From Promethearchaeota archaeon (GTDB taxonomy: Archaea > Asgardarchaeota > Lokiarchaeia > Sigyniarchaeales > SOKP01), in the NCBI GenBank assembly GCA_030606485.1, contig JAUWGH010000001.1, positions 390,001 to 422,000 of the forward strand: 32,000 nucleotides of DNA, written 5' to 3'. Below, piece by piece: positions 1-16,459 of this stretch (position 1 is its first letter; each line of letters starts with the position of its first letter). The notes under the pieces are model-generated. The model had not been told where the DNA came from and made no database searches. It saw only the letters and a program-made list of their open reading frames with translations. Made by a program: the position numbers and the translations under genes.

Positions 1-3000
1 CGTTTAAGTTCCTCTTGTTCAACCTTTTTTAACCGAACCTTTCTAATCAATTCATGAATCGAATCAACAGGATATTGTATTTTACTTAAAAGAAGCACGG
101 CATTTCGATATGCATTAATTGCCGGCTCAAAATTCCCGATTTTAGTTAAATCCTCCGCCTCATCCAATATCTTAAATGCTTCCTCTCGTTTTTGCTCACG
201 ATATACTTCTATCTTCTCGCGTGTTTCGATTGCTATCTTCTTCACCATCATCTTCTTTCTCTCAAGTGCTAACTGACGAGTAATCTCTTTTTGAAATGTT
301 ACCTCCTCTAATTGCCTATGAATTTGAAGTTTTCTTTCTTTCTGTAATAACTCCTTTTGTTCCTTTTGTTTCAATTTAATTTTCTGTATCATTTCTTTAA
401 CAGCATGTGAGGGAAATTGAATTTCACTTAAAATAATATCAGCTTGACGATAAAGCTCTAAAGCTTCATCAAAATTTCCACGTTTTGTTAAAATCTCCGC
501 CTTATTCATTACATCAAATGCTTCAGTACGCTTTTTTTCTCGATAAGCAAGTAATCGTTCTTTAGTCTGAGCCGCGATTTTTTTAACAAACATTTTTTTC
601 TTTTCTAACTCAATATTATGAGTAATTCTTGCTTGAAATTCTCTTTCTTCACCTTCATGTTTAACCGCTAATTCCTTCTGTCGCTGTAGCTCTTGTGTGA
701 TTTCAATCTTACGTCTATTTAAATTTTCTAGTGTATCTTGGATTACCCTAAGATAAGGGCCTTTCCAGCCAATTTGATTAAAAATTTCTATTGCCGATTT
801 GTGAATTCTAATAGCCTCATCTAAATTTCCTTCCCTTATATGCTCATCTGAACTCTCGAGCATTTTCAATGCTTCTTCTTGTTTCTTTAATTTCTGCTCT
901 GATAAGATTTTTTTCTGTTCCTGAATATATTGCGCAAATTTAACTTTCTCTTCTTGCTGACTTTTGATTAAAGCAATTTCATGCTGAAATTCTCTTGCTT
1001 CTTGTTCCCTTTTGATAGATTCCTCTCTTACTATTTGTTCCCACAGTTCTTTATCTTTCTTTTGTTGCTCAAGTTTGCGTATTGCACCTTGAATAAGTGC
1101 CAACTCTTCTGTCCACCGAATTTCAGCAAAAATAATCGATGCCTCATGATATTTTTCAATCGTAGCATCTAAATCCCCCCTCATTATTAACATCTTTGCT
1201 GCATCTAAAATATCAAAGGCCTCATTTTTTCGATTTTCACGATATTTTACTTCAGCTTCGTATTCTCTTAGTCTAATTTGACCCTCTCTTAACTTTTCAC
1301 GCTCCGTCCTTAATTCTTCAGCAATCATATCCTGAAATTCTTGGGTTTCTTGCTCACGTTTCAATAATACCTCTCGAGTCTTCTGTTCCCATAATTCTCT
1401 TTCCTTTTTTTTATTCTCAAGTTCTCGAATCGCATTCTGAATAAGTGCTAACTCATCATCCCATTGAATTTCTGCAAAAATAATCGAAGCTACTTCATAT
1501 TTTTCTATAATATCATCAAAATCTCCACTGATTGTCAATTTTTGAGCTTCATCTAAGATCTTAAATGCTTTCTCCTTTTGTTTTTCGCGATATTTCACTT
1601 CTTTTTCATATTCTCTAACTGTAATCTCTTTTTCTCTTAACTTCTCACGTTCCTCTCTTAATTGTTCAGAAATTTTATCCTGAAACTCTTTCGTTTCCTT
1701 TTCTCTTTTTAAAGCATCTTCTCTTTCTTTTAATTTTAGAAGTCTCATTTCTTTCTTTCTGTTTTCAAGATCTCGAATAGCACCTTGAATGAGTGATAAT
1801 TCATCAGTCCATTGAATTTCTGCAAAAATCATTAATGCCATGTAATATTTTTCTATGGCAATATCAAAATCCCCGCGTAATGTGTATTCTTCTGCCTCAT
1901 CTAATATTTTAAAAGATTCAACCTTTCTTTTCTTCCGATATTCAATCTCTGTTTCATATTCCCTAATTTCGATCTTTTTCTTCTCTAACTTTTCCCTTTC
2001 TTTTCGAATCTGTTCGGCAATTGTTTTTCGAAATTTTTCATCTTCCTTAGCACGCTTAACTTTTAATTCCTTGGCTGTCTCCTCATTTTTCAAAAATTCA
2101 CTATATTTATGTTGAACCGTGTTTATTGTAGTTTCAATTGTCGCAATTTGATCAGCCCAACCTATCTCTCTAAAAATATCACGTGCCTTTTTATAATTTT
2201 TAATTGCCTTTTCATAATTGCCTTTTCTTACCAATTCATCGCCTTCATTTATTACATTAAAAGCTTTTTTCTCTTTTGCGTGATCCATTTCCCGTATCTT
2301 TTCAATCTCTTTTTGTTTTAGGGAAATTCCTTCTACTTCCTGTTCTGCTTGAATCTTTTCATGCTTTTTTATAATTTCTTGGAATTTTAAATACTCTTTC
2401 TCTCGAGCTTTTTTCTCCTCGAGAACTTTCTGTTCATTTTCTTGTCTCCTTCTAATATCCGAGATGAACTTATATATTGGCTTAACATAATCAGTCCATC
2501 CTATTGATTGTAATAAATCTATTGCTCCATTAAAATTCTCGATTGCCCCATCATATTGTTTCTCTCGTTCAAATCGTTTTGCAATATCAATCATCTTAAA
2601 AGCTTCTTCTTGAATATGCTCTTCATGCTTTTTTCGTTCTTCAAACTCTACTATTTTCTGCTTTTTAACTTCAATATCTGCTTTTGCTTTTACTGAGATT
2701 TCAGGGATTGGTGCAGTAACCGCTGCTTCTTTTGCTTTAATTTGCTGTGCTTGCAACTTTTTATAATTTACTCTATCTTTATTTATCTTATCAATGATTT
2801 TATTAATATGAACTAATTGATCAGCCCACCCAATAGATTCTAAGAGCTGCCCAGCCATACCATACTTTTCCATGGCTTCATTAAATTCCTTGACCTTTAT
2901 TAAACGCTCACCCTCATCCATCAATTCAAATGCTTTCTTTTGAACCTCATCCTCACGTCTTTTCTTCGCTTCATATTTCATTATTACTTTTGATTGTACG

Positions 3001-3890
3001 TCCATAATTTCTGGAACTATTTCTTTCTGAGGAGCTGTTTCCGAAGTAACGGGTTGGGGTGTAGCTCTAGCAGCTTGCTCAACTTTCTGACCTTCCACTT
3101 TTTCAAATGCTACCCTCTGCCTTTCAACCGAATCAATATCGCTATATAAATAAGACAAATTCTCGTCAGTCCATCCAATAGATCTCAATAGATCTAAAGC
3201 TTCGAGATATTTTGATTTTGCTACATCAAAATTCTTTTCCTCTAAAAGCTTTTTACCCATATCAATCGATTCAAAAGCACGATTTTGTATATCCTCTTCC
3301 CTTCGTTTTTGAGTCTCAAATTCCATTCGTAATTTACTCCGTTTATCAAGTCCTGCAGGAACAATTGTTGTTTCCGGAGCTCCAAAAGACTTTTCAACCT
3401 TGATGGGTGCCTGTTCAGCCCGTAATGCTCTTTGATGGGCCATAATTTGTTGCTGTTTGAAGATATCCACTAATTTTTCAAGTTTTAACTTGATTTGTCC
3501 TAATAAACTCTCATCCCATTTAGCCTGTTCCAATAACTTTATAGCTGATGAATAACAAGATATGGCTTCTTGATAACGACCATCGACTTCTAAAGACTTT
3601 GCTTTATCCAAAAAGTGGAATGCTTCATCTCTTAGACCAGAAAGCTCAACTTCGATTTCTTTTCGCTGCAAAGCCTTCTCTTGTTGAGTCACTTTAGTTA
3701 AATGTACTATTCGCTCATTTATATCATCAATATGAAGCGATAATAATCCACTTAGTTTTAATAATTCAACAGCCTTTGAATATTCTTCAATAGCTTTTGC
3801 CCAATTTTGCTGAGACTCATATTTTTCGGCTAAGTCTAAATGCCGAACTGCCTCCTCGGCTAATTGCTGGGGTGATGGTTTCTCGAACAT
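1..3890 (-). CDS. Giant MIT/TPR-like helical repeat protein, >1296 aa, 3'-truncated by window edge (absent from ORF track)
   Basis: ATG at 3890 preceded by AGGT. Translates MFEKPSPQQLAEEAVRHLDLAEKYESQQNWAKAIEEYSKAVELL... No stop found in the stretches translated by hand (1-600, most of 600-1930, 2280-2400, 2640-2760, 2880-3120, 3300-3890); still open at position 3. The motif AF..LD.A..L...G.F..AI..Y..A..IF..I.W recurs in one frame. Confidence 0.9.
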   Translation of the reverse strand, partial: MFEKPSPQQLAEEAVRHLDLAEKYESQQNWAKAIEEYSKAVELLKLSGLLSLHIDDINERIVHLTKVTQQEKALQRKEIEVELSGLRDEAFHFLDKAKSLEVDGRYQEAISCYSSAIKLLEQAKWDESLLGQIKLKLEKLVDIFKQQQIMAHQRALRAEQAPIKVEKSFGAPETTIVPAGLDKRSKLRMEFETQKRREEDIQNRAFESIDMGKKLLEEKNFDVAKSKYLEALDLLRSIGWTDENLSYLYSDIDSVERQRVAFEKVEGQKVEQAARATPQPVTSETAPQKEIVPEIMDVQSKVIMKYEAKKRREDEVQKKAFELMDEGERLIKVKEFNEAMEKYGMAGQLLESIGWADQLVHINKIIDKINKDRVNYKKLQAQQIKAKEAAVTAPIPEISVKAKADIEVKKQKIVEFEERKKHEEHIQEEAFKMIDIAKRFEREKQYDGAIENFNGAIDLLQSIGWTDYVKPIYKFISDIRRRQENEQKVLEEKKAREKEYLKFQEIIKKHEKIQAEQEVEGISLKQKEIEKIREMDHAKEKKAFNVINEGDELVRKGNYEKAIKNYKKARDIFREIGWADQIATIETTINTVQHKYSEFLKNEETAKELKVKRAKEDEKFRKTIAEQIRKEREKLEKKKIEIREYETEIEYRKKRKVESFKILDEAEEYTLRGDFDIAIEKYYMALMIFAEIQWTDELSLIQGAIRDLENRKKEMRLLKLKEREDALKREKETKEFQDKISEQLREEREKLREKEITVREYEKEVKYREKQKEKAFKILDEAQKLTISGDFDDIIEKYEVASIIFAEIQWDDELALIQNAIRELENKKKERELWEQKTREVLLKREQETQEFQDMIAEELRTEREKLREGQIRLREYEAEVKYRENRKNEAFDILDAAKMLIMRGDLDATIEKYHEASIIFAEIRWTEELALIQGAIRKLEQQKKDKELWEQIVREESIKREQEAREFQHEIALIKSQQEEKVKFAQYIQEQKKILSEQKLKKQEEALKMLESSDEHIREGNLDEAIRIHKSAIEIFNQIGWKGPYLRVIQDTLENLNRRKIEITQELQRQKELAVKHEGEEREFQARITHNIELEKKKMFVKKIAAQTKERLLAYREKKRTEAFDVMNKAEILTKRGNFDEALELYRQADIILSEIQFPSHAVKEMIQKIKLKQKEQKELLQKERKLQIHRQLEEVTFQKEITRQLALERKKMMVKKIAIETREKIEVYREQKREEAFKILDEAEDLTKIGNFEPAINAYRNAVLLLSKIQYPVDSIHELIRKVRLKKVEQEELK
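72..3750 (-). repeat. Intragenic tandem repeat, about 12 units of mostly 110-117 aa (exact 348-nt period in the core)
   Basis: Conserved Trp (or equivalent) codons at plus positions 72, 414, 765, 1113, 1461, 1809, 2157, 2496, 2826, 3171, 3516, ~3744. Spacing 765-2157 is exactly 348 nt; the most N-terminal spacing is only 228 nt. Confidence 0.85.
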
Positions 3891-5032: not shown

Positions 5033-5329
5033 CTAAAAAATTTGTTTTAAATTCTCATAACCTTCAAGTAAATCTTCTTTACTTATCTTAGATTTAATTC
5101 CTAAATCTATGATTAAATCCATGAATTCTGATAACGGAATATTTGCAAGATATGCAGCCTTTCCAATTGAATACTTGCCCTCAGCATAACCTTTTATCGC
5201 TAAGTATATACTTCCATTAGTGATTAAATCCCTAATTAGATCTGATTGTTCTGCTTTTTTTATTTCTGAATATCTTTTGATAATCTCTTCCAAACTTTCA
5301 TTAATTCTTACAGATATAACCCTACCCAT
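5033..5329 (-). CDS. UPF0175-family antitoxin-like protein with N-terminal ribbon-helix-helix-like segment
   Basis: GKYSIGKAAYLANIPLSEFMDLIIDLGI matches the UPF0175 pattern; N-terminus VISVRINESLEEII...SDLIRDLI is RHH-like; GGAGGT SD lies inside the end of the upstream gene. Confidence 0.8.
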   Translation of the reverse strand: MGRVISVRINESLEEIIKRYSEIKKAEQSDLIRDLITNGSIYLAIKGYAEGKYSIGKAAYLANIPLSEFMDLIIDLGIKSKISKEDLLEGYENLKQIF

Positions 5330-5332
5330 TTT

Positions 5333-5851
5333 TTATACCTCCATATTTTCTATTCTATTTTTAAATTCTAAAATTGGCTCCTCTTTATACCATCCAAATT
5401 CTTGCAATTTTTCAAATTTTAACAAAGATATATTTTTTGAAAGTTTCTTTTTTGAATATGATCGTATAATAAATAATGGAGTCGTAAAATATTTAATCTC
5501 AAGAATTTTACAAACTTTTAATGTTCTATAGTCATCAGTTCCTAATAGCTCTGCTTTTCTTTCTAAGTATAGAATAATTGCTTCTGATTCACCTTCATGT
5601 ATATTAAAATCCTTCATAAGTTTCTTTTTTTCAGTTAAATTCTTTATATTTTCTACTATTATTTTTCCATCACTAATTTTTTTATCAATTAAAAAGGCAT
5701 CCATTTTTTTAAATTTTTTTCCTTTCTCAACAGATTCAATATAAACTGCTTGAGGTATCATTACACTCCCAAATGCTTCAATTAATAAATCCAACATCTC
5801 TAATTTTGATATAAGTATTAATATTGAAGAATCGCAAATTACAATAGTCAT
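5333..5851 (-). CDS. DUF3368-type PIN-domain protein (putative VapC-like nuclease toxin)
   Basis: ICDSSILILISK, VMIPQAVYIE, HEGESEAIIL, LLGTDD: acidic PIN residues retained; 3 nt upstream of the UPF0175 gene. Confidence 0.8.
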   Translation of the reverse strand: MTIVICDSSILILISKLEMLDLLIEAFGSVMIPQAVYIESVEKGKKFKKMDAFLIDKKISDGKIIVENIKNLTEKKKLMKDFNIHEGESEAIILYLERKAELLGTDDYRTLKVCKILEIKYFTTPLFIIRSYSKKKLSKNISLLKFEKLQEFGWYKEEPILEFKNRIENMEV

Positions 5852-7040: not shown

Positions 7041-7574
7041 TTAATTTGGTAGATAGCCCATTTTTTTTAAGGATATTAGAATTGTATTTTTACATTCTTT
7101 AATCGTTTGTTTATCGGTTTCAATAATAATATTAGGATTATCTGGTTCTTCAAAAGGATGATCGATTCCCGTAAAGTTTTTTATTTCTCCGGCTCTTGCT
7201 TTTTTATACATTCCTTTTGGATCTCTCTGTTCGCACACTTCTAAAGAGCATTTCACATATACCAAAATATAATCTCCGATTTCTTTCCGAGAATATGCTC
7301 TGATTTTATTATAAGGTGAAATAAAAGAGCAGAGCACGGCTACCCCATTTCGCGTTAATAATTTTGCGACAAATGTAACTCTTTCGATATTCATATTTCG
7401 ATCTTCTTCAGTAAATCCAAGATCTTTGGTTAAACTTTTTCTAACAATATCGCCATCTAATCTTTCTACTTTCATTCCCGTTTTTTTAAGTTCCTCTGCA
7501 ACAGTATCAGCAATCACACTTTTTCCGGAGCCCGAAAGTCCGGTAAACCATAATGTAAATCCTTTATGTTCCAT
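7041..7574 (-). CDS. cysC: Adenylyl-sulfate (APS) kinase
   Basis: WFTGLSGSGKS P-loop, LDGDIVR, DLGFTEEDR, RDPKGMYKKARAGEIKNFTGI. Confidence 0.96.
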   Translation of the reverse strand: MEHKGFTLWFTGLSGSGKSVIADTVAEELKKTGMKVERLDGDIVRKSLTKDLGFTEEDRNMNIERVTFVAKLLTRNGVAVLCSFISPYNKIRAYSRKEIGDYILVYVKCSLEVCEQRDPKGMYKKARAGEIKNFTGIDHPFEEPDNPNIIIETDKQTIKECKNTILISLKKMGYLPN

Positions 7575-7599
7575 TTTTTTATCTACAAATTTATAAATT

Positions 7600-8991
7600 T
7601 TAAAATTCTATAATTTCTCCCTCTAAATCTTTAGGGATATCAACACCTAAAATATTCAGGGCAGTTGGTGCAATATCCAAAATATTTTGAGTTGGTAATT
7701 TTTTACTAATTTTTCTTTTTGGATCGGAAATAATGAATATTCCATAATAATCATGAACCGCATCATCGGGACCCGTGTCATTCTCATCAAGATACATTGT
7801 ATCATACCCTACTGTTCCTGCCGATCTCCAATTTAAATCATCAAAATAAACCATTAAGTCGGGTGCATCTCCTCGAATAGTATCATATAACTCCTCAGGC
7901 TTAAAAACCTTAGTATCCATAGAATTTCCTTTATCATCTTTTACATTTTTTAATAGATTAGCAATTTTTTCCCGCCATTTTTCATATTCTTCTGGTTTAA
8001 TAATTCCATTAGGTTCCCTTCCTTTAACGTTCAAAAATATTCGAGCGTAATAACCTCCCCAACCCCACGCATAAGTTTTTCCCCAATCAATTTCAGCATC
8101 TTCCAATCGAGTTCTTGGTTTTGGATTATTTTTAAATTTTAAGAGTCCAAGTTTTTCGAGCGCCATATTCACACATAGGCATCCTTTCATCGCTTTTGCT
8201 CCATGGTCTGAGACGATCATAATTGTAGTATTCTTCTCATCAATTAACTCTAAAATTTCTCCAACTTGTTTGTCAAGAAATTTATAAAAATTTTTTATTG
8301 CACTTTCAAACATATTACCCGGTTCATATTTGTGATGTGATTTATCGTAATATTTCCAAAAAGCATGATGAAGTCTATCCAATCCAATTATTACAAAATG
8401 GCAATAATTCCATTCTTTTGTTTTAATTAGATATTTAACTGTATTGAAGTGAATTTTGGTCATTTGGTATAGATCAATTAATAGCTGTTCTTTAGCGTTA
8501 GTTCTAAATTTTACGTCTAAGATATAATCTCCGACATTTTCACTTATTTCTTTCTTTAATTCAGGAGGATAAGTAAATTCTGATAATGTATCTGGTGCAA
8601 TAAATCCTGCTACAAGACATCCATTTAATGGTTTTACAGGATAAGTTGGAGGGATTCCTAAAATAATAGATTTTAATCCTTTTTCACTGATAATCTCCCA
8701 TATTTTTGGTTCAATAATAATCTTTGAATTTGCAACCCAATAATCTGTATAGGAGTTTTCTTTTCGATGGCGGAATCCGTAAATTCCTAATGTTCCCGGT
8801 TTTTTCCCAGTAACCATTACCATCCAAGCAGGAATAGTAATTGGGGGGTCGGAACTTCTCAGCTTTCCATAGGCTCCTTCGGCTACCATTTTCTTTATAT
8901 TAGGACAATCATCAAGAAAGTCTTTAAATAAGGTTTTTGGAGCTGCGCAATCGAGTCCAATAATCATCAATTTTTTATCGTAATTTTTCAT
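7600..8991 (-). CDS. Alkaline-phosphatase-superfamily enzyme (type I phosphodiesterase/nucleotide pyrophosphatase-like)
   Basis: GLD14 metal ligand, PPIT52 nucleophile position, DRLHH, SDHG and C-terminal HD ligands; no CxPxR sulfatase motif. Confidence 0.88.
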   Translation of the reverse strand: MKNYDKKLMIIGLDCAAPKTLFKDFLDDCPNIKKMVAEGAYGKLRSSDPPITIPAWMVMVTGKKPGTLGIYGFRHRKENSYTDYWVANSKIIIEPKIWEIISEKGLKSIILGIPPTYPVKPLNGCLVAGFIAPDTLSEFTYPPELKKEISENVGDYILDVKFRTNAKEQLLIDLYQMTKIHFNTVKYLIKTKEWNYCHFVIIGLDRLHHAFWKYYDKSHHKYEPGNMFESAIKNFYKFLDKQVGEILELIDEKNTTIMIVSDHGAKAMKGCLCVNMALEKLGLLKFKNNPKPRTRLEDAEIDWGKTYAWGWGGYYARIFLNVKGREPNGIIKPEEYEKWREKIANLLKNVKDDKGNSMDTKVFKPEELYDTIRGDAPDLMVYFDDLNWRSAGTVGYDTMYLDENDTGPDDAVHDYYGIFIISDPKRKISKKLPTQNILDIAPTALNILGVDIPKDLEGEIIEF

Positions 8992-9039
8992 TATTTAACT
9001 AGTCCAAATGGTTTAAAATCGATATTAAAATTATAGTAT

Positions 9040-10188
9040 CTATTCACAAAAGGGATTTTGATATTTTAATATTACTTTCGCTACTTCAGGACGCATAATA
9101 TCTGCAGAGGGTTCATTTCCAGAATTAAGCACATTCCTTATTTTTGTTCCGCTGAAGAATGTGTGAAGTTCGGGAGAGTGGGGGCAAATTTTATCATTAA
9201 CGATTGAACGACATTTATTACAGTATGAAAAGGACTTAAAGAATATTGGTTCAATACCAAAGTCGGGAAATTGTTCAAATATTTTATGCGCGTCGTATGG
9301 TCCATAATAATCTCCGACTCCAGCGTGATCCCTTCCGATTATGATATGATCGCATCCAAAATTTTTTCTTGCAATCGCATGAAATATTGCTTCTTTTGGA
9401 CCAGCGTATCTCATTTCAGTTTCAAATGTACTTAACACAACCCTATCTTTTGGATAGTATTCTTTTATTAATGTTTTATAAGTCTCAATAATCACCTCAT
9501 CTAAAAAATCTCCTTTCTTTTTTTTACCTATCACTGGGTTTATAAAAAGACCATCGCAATATGTTAATCCCGCTTTTTGGACGTATTCATGACCTAAATG
9601 AGGTGGATTTCTTGTTTGAAAAGCAACAACTTTATTCCATTTTTTTGTTTTAAATAAAACTCTCGTTTCGATTGGTTTTAAATCCAAATCCGGGAATTTT
9701 GCCATTATTTCATTTATTAAGAAAATATCTCCTCCAATGAGCTTCTCTTTTTGATTAAAAACTTTATCAACACCAGGATGATTTCGATCTAAAGTTCCAT
9801 AAACCTTTTCTGCTAAAACTTTTTTATCATAATCATAAATTTCATTAACGTTCATTAAAGCTATTGGTTTATTAGTTAAATCGGTTAAAATAATTCTATC
9901 TTCAGCTTTAATATTTTTAATTTGTTCTTCCGAAACATCTAAAACAATAGGGAAAGGCCATATAACATTATTTTCTAAACACATATGTTCGAGAACATTT
10001 ATATAATCATTCCTATGCATAAATCCTTCTAATGGGCTAAAAACACCAAATGAAATATTTTTTATAACTTTACAAGTCTCATTGTCTACTTGAATTTTTT
10101 CGAATTCATCTGCTTGTTCAATCAATCTTTTCCTTTCAAATTTAGGTAATTCTTTATTTATTAAATTACCACCATGCGGTTGAATCAT
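9040..10188 (-). CDS. sat: Sulfate adenylyltransferase (Sat type)
   Basis: QTRNPPHLGH, YAGPKEAIFHA, GRDHAG, SGTKIR. Confidence 0.96.
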   Translation of the reverse strand: MIQPHGGNLINKELPKFERKRLIEQADEFEKIQVDNETCKVIKNISFGVFSPLEGFMHRNDYINVLEHMCLENNVIWPFPIVLDVSEEQIKNIKAEDRIILTDLTNKPIALMNVNEIYDYDKKVLAEKVYGTLDRNHPGVDKVFNQKEKLIGGDIFLINEIMAKFPDLDLKPIETRVLFKTKKWNKVVAFQTRNPPHLGHEYVQKAGLTYCDGLFINPVIGKKKKGDFLDEVIIETYKTLIKEYYPKDRVVLSTFETEMRYAGPKEAIFHAIARKNFGCDHIIIGRDHAGVGDYYGPYDAHKIFEQFPDFGIEPIFFKSFSYCNKCRSIVNDKICPHSPELHTFFSGTKIRNVLNSGNEPSADIMRPEVAKVILKYQNPFCE

Positions 10189-10233
10189 TTCATTTCAATT
10201 TTTTTAATGTTTTTTCTTTTTGCTTTAATAATT

Positions 10234-10473
10234 TTAATCAATATATCCTAAATCTCTTAGGCGTTGTTTAACTTTTTCTTCATCTTCTTTAGAAAATGCT
10301 TGTTTTGATTTTTCGTCTTCTTCAATAGAAGATATTACCTGTCTTAGCACATATGTTACATAACTTGAAACAGAAGGAAAACCAGTTCCTTTCATTCGTT
10401 CTTTTATTTTTTTTATTAAAGGTTTAGGAATAGACACTGTGGAATATTCAACCTTATGTTCATCTTCAGACAT
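10234..10473 (-). CDS. Ribbon-helix-helix (CopG-like) regulator with C-terminal RLRDLGY tail
   Basis: YSTVSIPKPLIKKIKERM...FPSVSSYVTYVLRQ (beta strand plus two helices); first gene of the sat operon; tail EDEEKVKQRLRDLGYID. Confidence 0.82.
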   Translation of the reverse strand: MSEDEHKVEYSTVSIPKPLIKKIKERMKGTGFPSVSSYVTYVLRQVISSIEEDEKSKQAFSKEDEEKVKQRLRDLGYID

Positions 10474-10501
10474 TTTTTATTATCATCTTTATTAAAATAC
10501 T

Positions 10502-10538
10502 TAATTATATGTAATTACACATAATTATATTATGATTA
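10502..10538. promoter_or_regulatory. Phased TAATTA array upstream of the RHH gene (putative autoregulatory operator)
   Basis: TAATTA at 10502, 10512 and 10522, plus TGATTA at 10533. Confidence 0.5.
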
Positions 10539-10721
10539 ACACTTTTTAAACATATCTTTATAAACTTTTAAGTTTAAATCTTGATATTTAATAAATTGAA
10601 AGAATATAGAACGGTATCCTTTTGATAACCGTATGAATATAAAGTATCTACCCAAAAGTGACTATAATGGTTAAGAATACAATTTTTTCTTTTAAAATAA
10701 GAGTAATATTTATATATAAAC

Positions 10722-10777
10722 TAATTATATTTAATCATATATAATTATATTTAACTATATTTAATCATATATAATTA
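10722..10777. promoter_or_regulatory. Six TAAYYA hexamers at exact 10-bp period, including a perfect 22-nt direct repeat (putative operator)
   Basis: TAATTA 10722, TAATCA 10732, TAATTA 10742, TAACTA 10752, TAATCA 10762, TAATTA 10772; 10726-10747 is identical to 10756-10777. Confidence 0.6.
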
Positions 10778-10905
10778 AACATGCTATAAATTTTCTTCCA
10801 TATTAGTATTAGAATTAAAAATAATCTAATGTAATAATGTATAAAAATAAAATCTGAACTGGAGAACCGCTTTAAAGTCCATGGTAATTATAGAGAATAA
10901 TTGAA

Positions 10906-11670
10906 GTGAAAAAAATGGAGATAATTATTTTACTTTTAATTTTTATTTTAGGGTTTTGTTGTGAGTTTATTGATAGTTCTCTTGGGATGGGATATGGAAC
11001 TTTAATGTCCCCTATTCTACTTATTCTCGGATTTGATATTTTTTTGGTTGTTCCATCAATACTCTTTTCAGAAATGCTAACTGGATTTTCAGCTTCTTTA
11101 TTTCATCATAAATTTAAAAATTTTGATTTAGTGAAGGAAGAAAAGAATAGGAAAATGGTACTAGTTCTTTCAATTTTGGGAGTTTTGGCAACTATTTTAT
11201 CCGTATTCATTGCAGTGCAGTTACCCAAAGAATTTATAAAATTATACATTGGAATACTTGTAATAATAGTTGGATTTATTTTACTCCATAGGAAAAAATT
11301 TAAATTTTCTTGGAAAAAGATGGGGATTATTGGTGTTCTTAGTGCGTTTAATAAATCAATTTCTGGAGGTGGGTTTGGTCCAGTTGTTACAGCTGGACAG
11401 TTAGTTTCCGGAAGGGATACTAAGGAGTCTATAGGAACAACTACTGCTTCAGAATTTATAATTTCTGTTGCTGGATTTTTAATGTATTTTTTGTTAAATG
11501 GATTGATTGATTTTACACTTGCTATTATTTTAGCGATTGCTGGTTTAATTGCAACTCCCTTTGGGGCTTGGGGTACTAAAAAAATTAAAAATGAAGATGT
11601 AGCTCGGAGATTAATAGGAATAATATCTATAAGCTTAGGAACTTTTACATTAATAAGGGTTTTTTCTTAG
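10906..11670 (+). CDS. TSUP (TauE/SafE) family sulfur-oxyanion transporter
   Basis: DSSLGMGYGTLMSP and SISGGGFGPVV half-repeat motifs; about 8 hydrophobic segments; divergent from the sat operon. Start may be ATG 10915. Confidence 0.88.
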   Translation: MKKMEIIILLLIFILGFCCEFIDSSLGMGYGTLMSPILLILGFDIFLVVPSILFSEMLTGFSASLFHHKFKNFDLVKEEKNRKMVLVLSILGVLATILSVFIAVQLPKEFIKLYIGILVIIVGFILLHRKKFKFSWKKMGIIGVLSAFNKSISGGGFGPVVTAGQLVSGRDTKESIGTTTASEFIISVAGFLMYFLLNGLIDFTLAIILAIAGLIATPFGAWGTKKIKNEDVARRLIGIISISLGTFTLIRVFS

Positions 11671-12969: not shown

Positions 12970-13902
12970 TTAAGTTATTCTCAATAAATCTTTAACTTGT
13001 TTAATTATATTTTCTTTATTTAAGCCATAAAAGTTTAATAAGGATTCTCTCGTTCCGGATTGACCAAATGAGTTCTCTACTCCTATAAATTTCATAGGTA
13101 TCGAATGAGTTTCAGATAATATTCTTGCTAATATGCTCCCAAATCCACAATAAATATTATGTTCCTCAATAATAACTATTCCTTTACAATTTTTAATTTG
13201 ACTAATTAACTCTCTTTTATCAATTGGCTTAATAGTGGGAAGATTAATAACTTTGATTGATATATTAAAATATTTTTCTAATATTGAAGCAGTTTGGATA
13301 CTTAAAACACTTCCATATCCCATACCTATGAAACAAATATCTTCTCCTTCCCTTAATAAATCCGGTTTTCCTATAGAAAATCGATATTTTTTCTGGTGGA
13401 TTTCAGGAAAAGATCCTCTGGGAAGCCTAATATAAAATGGTCCTTCATTGACAATAGCGTATTTTAAGATTTGGACTAATTCGATATTATCTAATGGTAC
13501 TAATATTTTCAAATTTGGAAGTGTTGACATCAAGCTTAAATCTTCCAAAGCATGGTGTGTGCTACCATCTTCTCCCACAAAACCACTATGTGTTGTTATG
13601 ATCTTTATATTTAAATTATCATGTGCCGCTAATCGAATAAATTCCCAAGCCCTTCCAGTAGTAAATACGGAAAATCCGCTTATTATTGGAATTTTTTCTG
13701 ATATAGCAAATCCCATTGCCGTGCCAACCATATTTTGTTCGGCAACACCCATATTAAAGAACCTATTAGGAAATATTTTGGCAAATTTACTAGTTCTTGT
13801 TGAGGAAGATAAATCGGCATCTAACACAACAATATTATTATTTTTTTTGCCGATTTCGACTAAAAAATTTCCAAATGTATCTCTAAGATCAGGTTCAGAC
13901 AT
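12970..13902 (-). CDS. tkt: Transketolase, C-terminal subunit
   Basis: VLDADLSSST, FFNMGVAEQNMVG, GEDGSTHHALED, YIRLPR, IIEEHNIYCGFGS. Confidence 0.93.
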   Translation of the reverse strand: MSEPDLRDTFGNFLVEIGKKNNNIVVLDADLSSSTRTSKFAKIFPNRFFNMGVAEQNMVGTAMGFAISEKIPIISGFSVFTTGRAWEFIRLAAHDNLNIKIITTHSGFVGEDGSTHHALEDLSLMSTLPNLKILVPLDNIELVQILKYAIVNEGPFYIRLPRGSFPEIHQKKYRFSIGKPDLLREGEDICFIGMGYGSVLSIQTASILEKYFNISIKVINLPTIKPIDKRELISQIKNCKGIVIIEEHNIYCGFGSILARILSETHSIPMKFIGVENSFGQSGTRESLLNFYGLNKENIIKQVKDLLRIT

Positions 13903-14763
13903 TTAATTTATCTTTTCTCTTAATTTATTTACAACATTATCAATTTCTTTTAAAGCGATTTCATATTCTTCTTTATTTGGAGCCCTTCCATGATATTTTC
14001 TTGAATGTTGCATAAAGGATACATCTGCTCCTTTAATTAAATATGAAATTAATACTGTAGGTTTTCCAATAACATTCTTGATTTCTTTTATTTCATTAAT
14101 TATTTCATTTATATTTGAACCATCAATTTCAATAACATTCCATCCAAACGCTTTCCATTTTTCTGCTAAAGGTTCTAATCCCATAATTTCTTCCGTAAAA
14201 CCATCAATTTGAATCCCATTTCTGTCAATAACTGCAATTAAATTATCTAATTTATAATGGCTTGCAGACATAGCCGCTTCCCAAATCGATCCTTCATTTA
14301 GTTCACCATCACCTAGAAGAACATATATAAATTTTTCCTTCTTTTTATCTAATTTTGCTGCTAAAGCACAACCAACTCCTATAGATAGTCCCATCCCTAA
14401 AGATCCAGTTGAAATTTCAATTCCTAAATCTCTATTTTTTATAGGATGTCCTTGTAATTTAGAACCAAATTGTCTTAGAGTAAAAAGATCGTCTCTTTTG
14501 ATAAATCCGATTTTAGATAAAACAGCATATAAAGCTGGAGCTGCGTGCCCTTTACTTAAAATGAATATATCTCTATTTTTCCAATTGGGTTTATTGGGAT
14601 TTATTTTCATAATTTTTAAATAAAGAAGATATAATAAAGTAGAGCAAGATAAAGATCCTCCGGGATGTCCTGATTGAGCCTTATAAATCATTTTTAAAAT
14701 ATCTTTTTTAATATCCAGGCTCTCAATTAATATTTTATTTACTTCTGATTTTGATAAAGTCAT
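13903..14763 (-). CDS. tkt: Transketolase, N-terminal (ThDP-binding) subunit
   Basis: SGHPGGSLS, FILSKGHAAP, LQGHP, STGSLGMG, GDGELNEG...N ThDP motif; abuts the C-terminal subunit gene. Confidence 0.95.
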   Translation of the reverse strand: MTLSKSEVNKILIESLDIKKDILKMIYKAQSGHPGGSLSCSTLLYLLYLKIMKINPNKPNWKNRDIFILSKGHAAPALYAVLSKIGFIKRDDLFTLRQFGSKLQGHPIKNRDLGIEISTGSLGMGLSIGVGCALAAKLDKKKEKFIYVLLGDGELNEGSIWEAAMSASHYKLDNLIAVIDRNGIQIDGFTEEIMGLEPLAEKWKAFGWNVIEIDGSNINEIINEIKEIKNVIGKPTVLISYLIKGADVSFMQHSRKYHGRAPNKEEYEIALKEIDNVVNKLREKIN

Positions 14764-14786
14764 GTTTTTTTAAAAAGAATATATTA

Positions 14787-15782
14787 TTAATTATTTGAGT
14801 AAGATAAAATATACTCAATGAGTTCTTCTGAATTATAAAATGTAACAGGTGGCAAAGAAGCTGTTCGTGCTGCACCAAATAGAGCAATTTTAGTTCCGTC
14901 TGAAACTGAAATCTTTGAAGCATAAGATAATGCTAAGTTCGCCATAATAACACTTCCAACAGCAACATAACTTCTAACAGGTTCTTTTAAGATTGGAGAG
15001 ATTGTCTCTACTTTTTCATAATCTTTAGAAAAAAGATAAGATTCTGATTCTAAATAATTTAATAACACATTTTTACATTTAGAAGAGGTTAAAATTTTCT
15101 TTCCAACAATTCTAATGCTTGTCTCATTATAACATTTAACTGATAATATTTTTAGGGCTTTTTGAAGATTTATCTTAATTAAATCGATTTCCTCATAGAG
15201 ATAATAATTGGATATATGGGGACGGGCAATAATAGGAATATTTTGATATTTCTTTTTTAATTTTAATAATAATTGTTGAATAAAAGAATCCTGAAATAAT
15301 CCACCCATCCCATAATCTAAAATTAATATCGCTTCAACACTCCGAGGTTTTGTTTCAATGAATTTAAAGAAATTTTCAACCGTATGTTTCGAGATATTTT
15401 TAGTATAATCCGTTTCTAAACGAAGAACATGCTGATTCATTGCTATTATCCGAGTAATTTGAGGTGTAGTTATATTAGCGTCTATTAAAATTCCAGAAGA
15501 GTTAATCTTTAATTCGTTAATTTTTTTTAAAAATTGTTCTCCCTCATAATCTTTACCAATAACTGTGCATATCTGAGGAACTCCCCCTAATGACTGTATA
15601 TATCGTAATACTAGTCCCGCACCTCCTAAATAATTGACTGTATTTTCAATCTTTATGTTTTGAACTGGTGCATCAGGAGAGATTCTATTTGCATAACCAA
15701 AAATATATTTATCTATTAAAGCTTCTCCTATTACTAAGATTTTCCTATTTTTAAATTTTTTTATCTCATCAACAAGTGACAT
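14787..15782 (-). CDS. PfkB/HldE(RfaE)-kinase-like protein with degenerate catalytic motifs
   Basis: ILVIGEALIDKY...RISPDAPV and LGGAG resemble the HldE kinase domain; GAGD is replaced by AVGS and NxxE by NLQK. Confidence 0.78.
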   Translation of the reverse strand: MSLVDEIKKFKNRKILVIGEALIDKYIFGYANRISPDAPVQNIKIENTVNYLGGAGLVLRYIQSLGGVPQICTVIGKDYEGEQFLKKINELKINSSGILIDANITTPQITRIIAMNQHVLRLETDYTKNISKHTVENFFKFIETKPRSVEAILILDYGMGGLFQDSFIQQLLLKLKKKYQNIPIIARPHISNYYLYEEIDLIKINLQKALKILSVKCYNETSIRIVGKKILTSSKCKNVLLNYLESESYLFSKDYEKVETISPILKEPVRSYVAVGSVIMANLALSYASKISVSDGTKIALFGAARTASLPPVTFYNSEELIEYILSYSNN

Positions 15783-15799
15783 TTTAAGATTTTTTTTGG

Positions 15800-16459
15800 T
15801 TATTTATTTTTTAATTGATTTTGCAATTTTTCCCAATCCTTAAGAAAGGCTTCTAGACCTTTATCTGTATTTGGGTGTTTAAACATTTTTTCTAAGACAG
15901 CAAATGGAATAGTAGCTACATGAGCACCCATTTTAGCAGCTTCTACGACATGTCTTGCATTTCTAATTGAAGCTACGAGTAATTTAGATTTAAAATCATA
16001 AGCGTTTATAATTTCCATCATCTCCCAAAGCGTATCTATTTCGTTTTGACTATTATCCATTAATCTTCCGATAAAAGGACTGATATATGTAGCCCCCGCT
16101 TTAGCTGCGATTAAAACTTGATTTTGCGAAAAGACGAGTGTTACATTCGTTTTTATTCCTTCTTTATCAAGTATTTTAACAGCTTTTATTCCATCTTTAG
16201 TCATAGGAATTTTAACAACTATATTTGAAGCAATTTTAGATAATTCACGGGCTTCTTTTACCATCACTTCAGTTGTTAGTCCAATCACCTCTGCACTTAC
16301 AGGGCCTTTAACTATTTCGCAAATCTTTTTTAATTGTTCATTAGGCTCCGCTCCTTCTTTTGCCAAGAGAGTAGGATTTGTTGTGACTCCATCAATTATA
16401 CCTAATTCTTGCATTTCTTTTATTTGGTCTAAATTTGCTGTATCTATAAAAAATTCCAT
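15800..16459 (-). CDS. tal: Transaldolase (TalC/FSA-like subfamily)
   Basis: [13 protein letters not shown] (Glu), VVKIPMT Schiff-base Lys, YISPF (Phe, as in Tal rather than FSA); AGGTGA SD. Confidence 0.93.

What the first reader, a model, noticed from the sequence alone, without database searches (positions are those of the whole stretch)
7041..11670. Sulfate-activation cassette with no canonical PAPS consumer: AlkP-superfamily enzyme as a candidate new sulfotransferase
Seen: RHH-sat-AlkP-cysC is one tight co-oriented unit (gaps of 45, 48 and 25 nt) with a divergent TSUP transporter. The AlkP protein sits between the two PAPS-making genes. It has a full metal-ligand set and Thr52 at the nucleophile position but no CxPxR. 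The window has no P-loop sulfotransferase, CysH, Apr or Dsr. Known: AlkP-superfamily members with Thr/Ser nucleophiles include group transferases (LtaS, EptA, GPI ethanolamine-phosphate transferases) that act through covalent intermediates. Inference: the enzyme may transfer sulfate from PAPS/APS to a sugar, lipid or glycan through a sulfo-Thr intermediate, or else recycle PAP/APS. I know of no characterised member in this context.
Basis: inference. Interest (0 to 1): 0.82.

Follow-up and report, generated by a model that had tools for sequence, protein, structure and literature searches.

The report
PAPS operon with embedded AlkP enzyme
An Asgard archaeon carries a widespread, already described four-gene cassette that makes the activated-sulfate donor PAPS. 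Its embedded phosphatase-fold enzyme has so far been assayed only as a pyrophosphatase, and it may instead be the missing sulfate-transferring step, but this is unproven.

Summary
On the minus strand lie a 79-aa protein, sat, an NPP-type AlkP enzyme (Thr52, full two-metal site, no CxPxR) and cysC. Gaps are 45, 48 and 25 nt, and a TSUP permease is divergent. The 100%-complete genome shows no PAPS reductase and no Sulfotransfer_1 or Sulfotransfer_3.

The enzyme is 50% identical to the P. yayanosii counterpart of TON_1705, which was assayed as a pyrophosphatase (kcat 2.1 per s, Km 19 uM). AlkP-superfamily sulfotransferases also have precedent (Agl30/Agl31, 2025). This scan has met the cassette repeatedly on other DNA.

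New here:
- Among 54 Asgard genomes with CysC, none lacks both this enzyme and a canonical sulfotransferase (14/19/21/0).
- Sat-AlkP fusions dominate the long forms.
- The enzyme is as conserved as Sat and CysC.
- A complex model puts the small protein's invariant LGY tail in the active-site cleft, with Tyr77 against Thr52.

My odds are 0.4 for a PAPS-using sulfuryl transferase, 0.33 for a dedicated pyrophosphatase with sulfation done by paralogs, and the rest for other roles. Only biochemistry can decide.

The parts
10234..10473 (-). 79-aa small protein. The N-terminal part is RHH-like (weak support). An acidic linker follows, then an invariant C-terminal tail ending R-L-R-x-L-G-Y-I-D (the 'LGY tail').
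   Evidence: ORF. It is present in 47 of 80 related loci. The alignment shows E65, R71, L72, L75, G76 and Y77 invariant. RHH support is weak. The complex model places residues 59-79 in the AlkP active-site cleft.
9040..10188 (-). sat, ATP sulfurylase (PUA_2 plus ATP-sulfurylase domains). It makes APS and PPi.
   Evidence: PF01747 at 9.8e-89 and NF003166 at 1.2e-153, over the cut-off.
7600..8991 (-). Core AlkP enzyme (P0001, 463 aa). It has an NPP-type fold, Thr52 as nucleophile and a two-metal site. It is the ortholog of TON_1705/PYCH_17550.
   Evidence: PF01663 at 5.1e-45. It is 50% identical over its full length to P. yayanosii P0311. The AF2 model has pLDDT 96. The nearest structures are Xac NPP and ENPP4/6/7, at Z 30-31.
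7041..7574 (-). cysC, APS kinase. It makes PAPS and ends in a looser LGY-like tail (K-K-M-G-Y-L-P-N).
   Evidence: PF01583 at 2.7e-63 and TIGR00455 at 4.4e-72, over the cut-off. Related CysC tails are listed.
10906..11670 (+). Divergent TSUP/TauE-family permease, probably for sulfate (or another sulfur oxyanion) transport.
   Evidence: PF01925 at 5.8e-35. A TauE gene follows cysC in P. yayanosii and in loci L077 and L040. The substrate is inferred.
10474..10905 (.). 432-nt divergent intergenic region between the small-protein gene and the permease gene. It presumably holds the promoters.
   Evidence: Coordinates. Promoters and operators were not tested here.

Best explanation
This is the Asgard copy of a widespread, horizontally spread sulfate-activation cassette: a copG-like small protein, Sat, an NPP-fold enzyme and CysC, usually with a TSUP permease. 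It was first described in Thermococcales.

The permease probably brings in sulfate, and Sat and CysC turn it into PAPS. My reading is that the NPP-fold enzyme is the cassette's own PAPS-using (or APS-using) step. Its Thr52/two-metal centre attacks the terminal sulfuryl group of the phosphosulfate anhydride and passes it to a conserved acceptor. The PPi hydrolysis measured for the ortholog TON_1705 would be the same chemistry on the look-alike P-O-P anhydride.

The invariant C-terminal LGY tail of the 79-aa protein, and a similar tail on CysC, docks in the enzyme's active-site cleft. It may act as a tether or regulator, or its tyrosine may be the acceptor.

Shown here:
- gene content and synteny;
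- orthology to the Thermococcales enzyme;
- an intact catalytic set;
- genome-wide lack of canonical consumers;
- the phyletic pattern across Asgard genomes.

Predicted only: the tail docking. Inferred only: sulfuryl transfer, the sulfo-Thr intermediate and the identity of the acceptor.
For: (1) The genome makes PAPS but shows no PAPS reductase, Sulfotransfer_1 or Sulfotransfer_3.

(2) The Asgard sample held 121 genomes at least 80% complete. Among the 54 with a bona fide CysC, the counts are AlkP+ST+ 14, AlkP+ST- 19, AlkP-ST+ 21 and AlkP-ST- 0. The naive Fisher p is 5e-6, but related genomes are not independent. Every PAPS-making genome therefore has this enzyme or a canonical sulfotransferase.

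(3) A 0.9-Mb DPANN genome has the cassette but no PF00884, PF13469 or PF01507.

(4) Several Archaeoglobaceae loci keep small protein-DHH-AlkP-CysC with no sat within 6 kb. Of 54 loci with adequate flanks, 7 have CysC only and 4 have Sat only.

(5) Many cassettes include a DHH pAp phosphatase. pAp arises only when PAPS is spent.

(6) In the complex model of AlkP with the 79-aa protein:
- ipSAE is 0.72, against 0.03 for the best of 3 controls.
- That mark was reached by 58 of 80 solved complexes and by 2 of 110 mismatched pairs.
- The runs agree in at least 61% of contacts, and the partner's pLDDT is at least 71.
- I used my own alignments, so the counts hold only roughly.
- Tail residues 59-79 lie on the conserved cleft, and Tyr77 touches Thr52, Ile53 and Phe73.

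(7) The tail is portable. It is found on the small protein, on CysC, on long AlkP paralogs or on the core enzyme itself in 69 of 84 loci. It was never seen on Sat.

(8) Rarer fusions join the enzyme to a GT2 glycosyltransferase, a methyltransferase or CysC.

(9) A conserved acceptor such as the tail would explain why the enzyme is as conserved as Sat and CysC. Median identity to the window proteins in other phyla is 52, 53 and 53%.

(10) AlkP-superfamily proteins can be sulfotransferases, as shown genetically for Agl30/Agl31 (PMC11980604).
Against: - The only assay of an ortholog found PPi hydrolysis with a low Km. kcat is 2.1 per s, Km 18.8 uM and kcat/Km 1.1e5 (Table 1 of PMC9653972, citing Lee et al. 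2009).
- All 120 best long homologs are Sat-AlkP fusions, that is, fusions to the PPi producer. Other fusions join a nucleotidyltransferase or a pyruvate-kinase barrel plus Sat.
- No natural sulfuryl transfer by a Thr/two-metal NPP site is known (my own knowledge).
- 14 cassette genomes also have canonical sulfotransferases.
- Other AlkP-superfamily paralogs exist in every cassette genome checked. They often lie next to the cassette, so they could be the real sulfotransferases.
- The phyletic counts are not corrected for relatedness.
- The docking is a prediction, and it would also fit a regulatory plug.
Confidence: 0.4

Rival explanations
1. The enzyme is a dedicated pyrophosphatase, and sulfation is done by other proteins. 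It hydrolyses the PPi released by Sat and so pulls the very unfavourable ATP sulfurylase reaction, as proposed for TON_1705/PYCH_17550. PAPS is then spent by other, lineage-specific enzymes. Here the candidates are sulfatase-fold or long Phosphodiest paralogs of the Agl30/Agl31 kind, such as the two non-Cys sulfatase-like genes in a glycosyltransferase cluster at G000:C10:491440-494264.
For: - The ortholog has measured PPase activity (PMC9653972 Table 1; the role is stated in PMC8268124 and PMC4463584).
- P0001 is 50% identical to the P. yayanosii counterpart over its full length, with the same synteny.
- All 120 best long homologs are Sat-AlkP fusions.
- NTP-transferase-AlkP and AlkP-PK-Sat fusions exist.
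- ATPS fused to an ordinary PPase is known in stramenopiles and haptophytes (PMC2275785).
- Conservation equal to Sat and CysC fits a universal small substrate.
- Long Phosphodiest paralogs sit beside the cassette in P. yayanosii, DPANN, Nitrososphaerales, Verrucomicrobia and several Asgard families.
- This genome has sulfatase-like genes flanked by GT2 and GT4 genes.
- Agl30/Agl31 give the precedent (PMC11980604).
Against: - The genome has a family-I PPase. In T. onnurineus that type has a roughly 10,000-fold higher kcat than TON_1705 (PMC9653972).
- 21 Asgard genomes make do with CysC and canonical sulfotransferases but without this enzyme, so it is not needed for PAPS synthesis as such.
- Archaeoglobaceae cassettes without sat keep the enzyme beside CysC.
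- The LGY tails sit on CysC and on paralogs, not on Sat. The tail is also predicted to fill the active-site cleft.
- The long paralogs on contig C5 of this genome also occur in two same-genus genomes that lack CysC, so those two are not PAPS-dependent.
- AP-superfamily sites often hydrolyse PPi promiscuously (my own knowledge).
Confidence: 0.33
2. The enzyme has another hydrolase or hub role. It could be a phosphatase or phosphodiesterase acting on a bisphosphorylated or nucleotide substrate: pAp, PAPS or APS turnover, or a sugar bisphosphate such as heptose 1,7-bisphosphate. Alternatively it could be mainly a docking hub or sensor whose active site binds LGY tails, coupling metabolite level to the small regulator.
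For: - The fold and catalytic set are NPP-type.
- In 11 Verrucomicrobia loci a 50%-identical ortholog lies with a SIS (GmhA-like) gene, a GHMP sugar kinase and a tailed long paralog. Most of these loci have no sat or cysC within 6 kb.
- The window itself has heptose-pathway genes 12-15 kb away.
- The Asgard cassette lacks the DHH pAp phosphatase that other lineages insert (against 67, 75).
- Predicted tail docking in the cleft would suit a pseudo-substrate regulator.
Against: - Lineages with a dedicated DHH pAp phosphatase still keep this enzyme, so it is not simply the pAp phosphatase.
- Candidate pAp phosphatases exist elsewhere in this genome.
- Hydrolysing APS or PAPS inside the operon that makes them would be futile.
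- Some Verrucomicrobia loci have a fused Sat-CysC directly upstream, so that system is still tied to sulfate (L070, L098).
Confidence: 0.17

Closest known systems
Thermococcales sulfate-activation cluster: T. onnurineus TON_1704-1707 and P. yayanosii PYCH_17520-17570 (Lee et al. 2009, J Bacteriol 191:3415, as cited in PMC8268124 and PMC4463584)
   Same: It has the same genes in the same order: a copG-like small gene, ATP sulfurylase, a type I phosphodiesterase/NPP-family enzyme, APS kinase and a TauE permease. The enzyme here is 50% identical over its full length to PYCH_17550.
   Different: The Thermococcales version inserts a DHH pAp phosphatase between sat and the AlkP gene, and TauE is co-oriented. 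Here there is no DHH gene in the unit and the permease is divergent. The host is an Asgard archaeon.
TON_1705, the 'novel inorganic pyrophosphatase' of the NPP family
   Same: It is an ortholog by synteny and by sequence through the P. yayanosii counterpart. It has the same Pfam family and the same place in the operon.
   Different: Only PPi hydrolysis was reported (kcat 2.1 per s, Km 18.8 uM, PMC9653972). I could not read the original paper, so I do not know whether APS or PAPS were tried. Activity of the window protein is untested.
Agl30 (VNG1056C) and Agl31 (VNG1057C), N-glycan sulfotransferases of Halobacterium salinarum (PMC11980604)
   Same: They are archaeal and belong to the alkaline-phosphatase superfamily. 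They are not P-loop sulfotransferases and are encoded in a glycan cluster. They show that this fold can carry out sulfation in vivo.
   Different: They are sulfatase-like (nearest structures 5G2U and 6HHM), not NPP-like. Their donor and mechanism are unknown, and they are not embedded between sat and cysC.
Nucleotide pyrophosphatase/phosphodiesterases (Xanthomonas NPP, ENPP1-7; Pfam PF01663)
   Same: The fold matches (Z 30-31, rmsd 3.2 A over 341-351 residues). The Thr nucleophile and the six metal ligands match.
   Different: Identity is only 13-17%. This enzyme is cytoplasmic and has extra conserved elements, including a G-G-Y-Y-x-R...G-R-E-P block (residues 312-327). No solved close relative exists.
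ATP sulfurylase fused to inorganic pyrophosphatase in stramenopiles and haptophytes (PMC2275785)
   Same: It physically couples a PPi-removing enzyme to Sat, like the abundant Sat-AlkP fusions of Chloroflexota.
   Different: There the partner is an ordinary family-I PPase. Here it is a 460-aa NPP-fold enzyme, in a genome that also has a family-I PPase.

Membership tests
Thermococcales-type sulfate-activation cluster (TON_1704-1707 / PYCH_17520-17570) | Small copG-like gene, then sat, an NPP-family gene and cysC, all co-oriented | tested here: met
   The P. yayanosii locus L113 has the same order. 33 of 54 well-flanked loci have both Sat and CysC.
Thermococcales-type sulfate-activation cluster (TON_1704-1707 / PYCH_17520-17570) | DHH pAp phosphatase gene inside the cluster | tested here: not met
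   There is no ORF between sat and the AlkP gene (a 48-nt gap). A 350-aa DHH-DHHA1 protein lies elsewhere, at C6:174527.
Thermococcales-type sulfate-activation cluster (TON_1704-1707 / PYCH_17520-17570) | NPP-family member orthologous to PYCH_17550/TON_1705 | tested here: met
   50% identity and 71% positives over 452 residues to P0311, E 3e-176. The TON_1705 sequence itself was not on hand.
NPP / Phosphodiest (PF01663) | Pfam score over the gathering cut-off | tested here: met
   155 bits against a cut-off of 23.
NPP / Phosphodiest (PF01663) | Thr nucleophile plus Asp/His ligands of two metal ions | tested here: met
   D14, T52, D205, H209, D262, H263 and H413 are conserved.
NPP / Phosphodiest (PF01663) | Phosphodiesterase or nucleotide pyrophosphatase activity | not testable with these tools
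   This needs an enzyme assay.
Inorganic pyrophosphatase of the TON_1705 type | PPi hydrolysis with a micromolar Km | not testable with these tools
   It is reported for TON_1705 only (PMC9653972 Table 1).
Formylglycine sulfatases (PF00884) | C/S-x-P-x-R motif at the nucleophile, and a Pfam score over the cut-off | tested here: not met
   The motif is P-I-T-I-P-A-W. PF00884 scores 21.4 bits, below 25.
Canonical PAPS sulfotransferases (PF00685, PF13469 and relatives) | P-loop sulfotransferase domain | tested here: not met
   P0001 has no such Pfam hit. There is none in the genome either.
AlkP-superfamily sulfotransferases (Agl30/Agl31) | Alkaline-phosphatase-like core fold | tested here: met
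   6HHM, the nearest structure to Agl31 according to PMC11980604, is also a match here (Z 24.4; best PDB sequence hit).
AlkP-superfamily sulfotransferases (Agl30/Agl31) | Sequence relatedness to Agl30/Agl31 and membership of the sulfatase family | not tested
   The Agl30/Agl31 sequences could not be fetched with the tools left. P0001 falls in PF01663, not PF00884.
AlkP-superfamily sulfotransferases (Agl30/Agl31) | Loss of glycan sulfation on deletion, and gain on heterologous expression | not testable with these tools
   This needs a genetic experiment.

The most novel reading that the evidence does not exclude
The core enzyme is a PAPS-dependent tyrosine sulfotransferase for the portable LGY tail. 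It loads the invariant tail tyrosine (Tyr77 here) with sulfate, making a protein-borne aryl sulfate. That sulfo-tyrosine then acts as a swinging-arm donor for sulfatase-fold or long Phosphodiest paralogs, which pass the sulfate on to glycans. This would be a carrier-mediated sulfation pathway parallel to the P-loop sulfotransferases. It would explain four things: the tail on the small protein, CysC and the paralogs; the enzyme's high conservation; its complementary distribution with canonical sulfotransferases; and its PPase side activity.
Probability: 0.12. Interest if true: 0.92.

Novelty: new variant of a known kind. Interest (0 to 1): 0.62.

Why it matters
PAPS is the universal sulfate donor. 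Many archaea and bacteria carry this cassette, including Asgard archaea, Thermococcales, DPANN, Aminicenantes, Verrucomicrobiota and Chloroflexota, and they make PAPS with no recognisable enzyme to spend it.

If the embedded NPP-fold enzyme is the consumer, it would define a second large structural class of sulfotransferases. The library search found 2,847 cluster representatives at E below 1e-30. It would also explain how sulfated surface glycans are made in these groups, and the 2009 pyrophosphatase annotation would need revision.

If it is only a pyrophosphatase, the missing consumers are probably Agl30/Agl31-like paralogs, which also matters for annotation.

The predicted docking of the LGY tail into the active site gives a first candidate partner for a widespread, undescribed peptide tag. 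A few simple experiments can test it.

Tried and rejected
- **Paper not held.** Lee et al. 2009 (PMC2687159) is not in the library. The kinetics are quoted second-hand from PMC9653972.
- **Failed locus scan.** The search for related loci with the 39-sequence alignment failed for lack of a conserved stretch. A 12-sequence alignment worked.
- **PDB by sequence.** Only weak sulfatase and NPP hits came back.
- **PAPS_reduct across Asgard genomes is uninformative.** Most hits are a ~650-aa protein present whether or not CysC is present. I did not count it as a consumer.
- **Weak negatives.** For PF03567, PF17784, PF19798 and PF09037 the controls rang in no genome, so their absence here is weak.
- **pAp phosphatase reading rejected as the main one.** Lineages with a DHH pAp phosphatase in the cassette still keep the enzyme.
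- **C5 paralogs rejected as PAPS users.** The two long Phosphodiest paralogs on contig C5 have counterparts of like size in two same-genus genomes that lack CysC.
- **Flanking ORFs rejected as hidden sulfotransferases.** The unknown ORFs at 5033-5851 are a UPF0175/PIN-like pair.
- **Bathyarchaeia loci do not show an APS-only system.** They have RHH-Sat-AlkP with no adjacent cysC, but CysC is elsewhere in those genomes.
- **RHH fold not confirmed.** Neither Pfam nor a PDB profile confirmed it.
- **Not done.**
  - A comparison with the Agl30/Agl31 sequences.
  - A search for Apr, Dsr or sulfite reductase in the genome.
  - Promoter or operator analysis.
  - Expression data.

Full report
**1. What is there**

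The minus strand of window 7041-10473 holds four close-packed genes:
- a 79-aa protein at 10234-10473;
- sat at 9040-10188;
- a 463-aa alkaline-phosphatase-superfamily enzyme at 7600-8991 (P0001);
- cysC at 7041-7574.

The gaps are 45, 48 and 25 nt. A TauE/TSUP permease gene at 10906-11670 diverges from them across 432 nt.

Pfam and NCBIfam confirm sat, cysC, the permease and PF01663 (Phosphodiest) for the enzyme. The sulfatase model scores below its cut-off. The enzyme reads P-P-I-T52-I-P-A-W at the nucleophile, with no CxPxR. D14, T52, D205, H209, D262, H263 and H413 are conserved in relatives.

The surroundings are glycan and sugar genes, plus one unrelated gene pair:
- three SDR epimerase/dehydratase genes;
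- transketolase and transaldolase;
- a heptose-type GHMP kinase, a SIS isomerase and a HAD phosphatase;
- GT2 and GtrA;
- a UPF0175/PIN-like pair at 5033-5851.

The organism is an Asgard archaeon (best hits). Its genome is 3.75 Mb in 13 contigs and 100% complete.

**2. No canonical consumer in the whole genome**

The genome gave no match to PAPS_reduct, Sulfotransfer_1 or Sulfotransfer_3, whose controls rang. It also gave none to four further sulfotransferase families, but their controls rang nowhere, so those negatives are weak.

The genome does have:
- a family-I pyrophosphatase;
- an inositol-phosphatase-family protein and a 350-aa DHH-DHHA1 protein, both possible pAp phosphatases;
- three cytoplasmic CxPxR sulfatases;
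- three non-Cys sulfatase-like proteins;
- two long Phosphodiest paralogs.

Two of the non-Cys sulfatase-like genes lie side by side between GT2 and GT4 genes at C10:491440-494264.

**3. The cassette is already known**

That is not so. PMC8268124 describes the five-gene cluster of P. yayanosii: copG, ATP sulfurylase, a DHH pAp phosphatase, a type I phosphodiesterase/nucleotide pyrophosphatase and APS kinase, with TauE next to it. It cites Lee et al. 2009 for T. onnurineus, where TON_1705 is the pyrophosphatase and TON_1706 the PAP phosphatase (also PMC4463584).

Table 1 of PMC9653972 gives TON_1705 a kcat of 2.1 per s and a Km of 18.8 uM at pH 9.5. The family-I enzyme Ton1914 has a kcat of about 3e4 per s.

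P0001 is 50% identical over its full length to the P. yayanosii protein. That locus reads small gene, Sat, DHH, AlkP, CysC, TauE, a Wzx-like flippase, a 545-aa Phosphodiest/sulfatase-like paralog and GT2.

AlkP-superfamily sulfotransferases are no longer without precedent either. Agl30 and Agl31 of Hbt. salinarum are sulfatase-like proteins shown by deletion and heterologous expression to sulfate an N-glycan (PMC11980604). Earlier agents of this scan met the same cassette on other DNA several times. I took their notes as leads only.

**4. Distribution**

The family is large, with 2,847 cluster representatives at E below 1e-30. Eighty genome loci at 46-72% identity come from many groups:
- Archaea: Asgard, Bathyarchaeia, Archaeoglobi, Thermoplasmata, Hadarchaeota, DPANN and Nitrososphaerales.
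- Bacteria: Aminicenantes, Verrucomicrobiota, Chloroflexota, Omnitrophota and others.

Of the 54 loci with adequate flanks, 33 have both Sat and CysC co-oriented nearby. Seven have CysC only, 4 have Sat only and 10 have neither.
- Several Archaeoglobaceae loci read small gene, DHH, AlkP, CysC with no sat within 6 kb.
- Bathyarchaeia loci lack an adjacent cysC but have one elsewhere in the genome.
- Verrucomicrobia loci read GT2, AlkP, GHMP kinase, a 571-aa tailed paralog, an acetyltransferase and GT4, with a SIS gene nearby. Some have a fused Sat-CysC directly upstream.

Sat, the enzyme and CysC are equally conserved. Median identity to the window proteins in other phyla is 52.9, 51.9 and 52.6%.

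**5. Fusions**

All 120 best long homologs are Sat-AlkP fusions. Rarer forms are CysC-AlkP, AlkP-GT2, NTP-transferase-AlkP, AlkP-pyruvate-kinase-barrel (with or without Sat) and AlkP-methyltransferase.

Sat and nucleotidyltransferases release PPi, which favours the pyrophosphatase reading. Ordinary PPase fused to ATP sulfurylase is known in stramenopiles and haptophytes (PMC2275785). The GT2 and methyltransferase fusions suit a glycan-tailoring enzyme better.

**6.

I searched 121 Asgard genomes that are at least 80% complete.
- The ortholog is present in 37. It is patchy: two same-genus genomes lack both it and CysC.
- A bona fide CysC is present in 54.

Among those 54, the split by enzyme and canonical sulfotransferase (ST) is:

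| | ST present | ST absent |
|---|---|---|
| Enzyme present | 14 | 19 |
| Enzyme absent | 21 | 0 |

The naive Fisher p is 5e-6, but relatives are not independent.

Canonical sulfotransferases therefore do not consistently accompany the cassette. No PAPS-making genome in the sample lacks both.

The PAPS_reduct hits are mostly a ~650-aa protein found with or without CysC, so they say nothing.

Six of the 19 genomes also lack any PF00884 protein. All have further PF01663 paralogs, often next to the cassette. A 0.9-Mb DPANN genome has the cassette, no PF00884, PF13469 or PF01507, and a 554-aa paralog 7 kb away.

The data therefore do not separate two readings: 'the core enzyme is the consumer' and 'tail-bearing or long paralogs that travel with the cassette are the consumers'.

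**7. Structure and the LGY tail**

The AF2 model is confident, with pLDDT 96. The nearest solved folds are NPPs:
- Foldseek gives TM 0.55-0.6 at 12-17% identity.
- VIA-align gives Z 30-31 for Xac NPP and ENPP4/6/7.
- PhnA scores Z 26.
- Sulfatases and PafA-type phosphatases score Z 23-25.

The 79-aa protein has an N-terminal part that looks RHH-like but is not confirmed. An acidic linker follows, then an invariant tail ending R-L-R-x-L-G-Y-[IL]-D.

The same tail ends other proteins in other lineages:
- CysC in lineages that lack the small gene;
- the long paralogs of Verrucomicrobia;
- the core enzyme itself in one locus.

A tail is present in 69 of 84 loci and was never seen on Sat. Earlier notes of this scan call it a portable docking tag whose partner is unknown.

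I ran a complex prediction of the enzyme with the small protein:
- ipSAE is 0.72, against 0.03 for the best of three controls.
- That mark was reached by 58 of 80 solved complexes and by 2 of 110 mismatched pairs.
- The runs agree in at least 61% of contacts, and the partner's pLDDT is at least 71.
- My own alignments were used, so the counts hold only roughly.

Tail residues 59-79 lie on the conserved cleft. The enzyme residues in contact are 51-53, 72-74, 130-134, 158-163, 311-313 and 405-409. Tyr77 touches Thr52, Ile53 and Phe73. This is a prediction, not a measurement.

**8. Weighing**

The pyrophosphatase reading has the only biochemical data, the dominant fusion partner and the eukaryotic parallel.

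Against it:
- The genome already has a family-I PPase.
- 21 Asgard genomes make PAPS without this enzyme.
- Cassettes that lost sat keep it beside CysC.
- The tails sit on CysC and on paralogs, not on Sat.
- A tail tyrosine is predicted at the nucleophile.

PPi resembles the phosphosulfate anhydride of APS and PAPS. A sulfuryl-transfer site could therefore well hydrolyse PPi (inference).

My odds:
- 0.40 that the enzyme spends PAPS or APS as a sulfuryl transferase;
- 0.33 that it is a dedicated pyrophosphatase, with sulfation done by Agl30/Agl31-like paralogs;
- 0.17 for another hydrolase or hub role;
- the rest unknown.

The boldest reading not excluded is a sulfo-tyrosine carrier tail that feeds sulfatase-fold transferases, at about 0.12.

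**9. Verdict**

The cassette is a known kind, and this scan has seen it before on other DNA. The function of the enzyme is open and can be tested with a handful of assays.

Noticed in passing
window 10234-10300 (C-terminus of the 79-aa protein); loci L047, L065-L067, L071-L076, L080, L083, L084, L087, L088, L094, L095, L099, L103: An acidic linker plus an R-L-[KRQ]-x-L-G-Y-[LI]-[DE] C-terminal tail is portable. It ends the small protein, CysC, the 571-644-aa AlkP paralogs or the core enzyme in different lineages. In this genome the strict motif occurs only once. A complex model docks it in the core enzyme's active-site cleft.
   Followed up: partly
window 5033-5851, minus strand: A UPF0175 protein (98 aa, PF03683 at 1.6e-8) and a weakly PIN-like protein (172 aa) form a likely toxin-antitoxin pair. 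It is wedged between two sugar epimerase genes beside the cassette.
   Followed up: partly
own genome, G000:C10:491440-494264 (outside the window; L116): Two adjacent cytoplasmic sulfatase-family proteins lack the Cys/Ser-x-P-x-R motif and are flanked by GT2 and GT4 glycosyltransferase genes. They are Agl30/Agl31-like candidates for glycan sulfation. Three further cytoplasmic CxPxR sulfatases lie elsewhere in the genome.
   Followed up: partly
window 12970-16459 and 21562-24580; loci L065, L070, L099, L103: Heptose-pathway-type genes lie near the cassette in Asgard loci: transketolase, transaldolase, a PfkB-like kinase, a SIS isomerase, a HAD phosphatase and a GHMP kinase. In 11 Verrucomicrobia loci a SIS gene and a GHMP kinase flank the 50%-identical ortholog. 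This is a possible link to a heptose-containing glycan.
   Followed up: no
Asgard phylum sample: A ~650-aa protein with a PAPS_reduct domain is present in 90 of 121 Asgard genomes whether or not they have CysC. It is almost absent from this genome's own family (1 of 20). It is probably not a PAPS reductase.
   Followed up: no
Asgard phylum sample: The cassette is patchy. Two same-genus genomes (100% and 94% complete) showed no match to the enzyme or to CysC, so it behaves as an accessory, probably mobile, module.
   Followed up: partly
proteins P0150, P0244, P0153, P0133, P0264: Unusual fusions of the enzyme occur: with a pyruvate-kinase barrel (with or without Sat), a MobA-like nucleotidyltransferase, a GT2 glycosyltransferase and a SAM methyltransferase.
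   Followed up: partly
window 3-3890 minus strand; 30452-31906 minus strand: A giant ORF of more than 1296 aa runs off the window start. A 484-aa protein carries an Arf/Ras-like GTPase domain. Both are Asgard-typical features unrelated to the finding.
   Followed up: no
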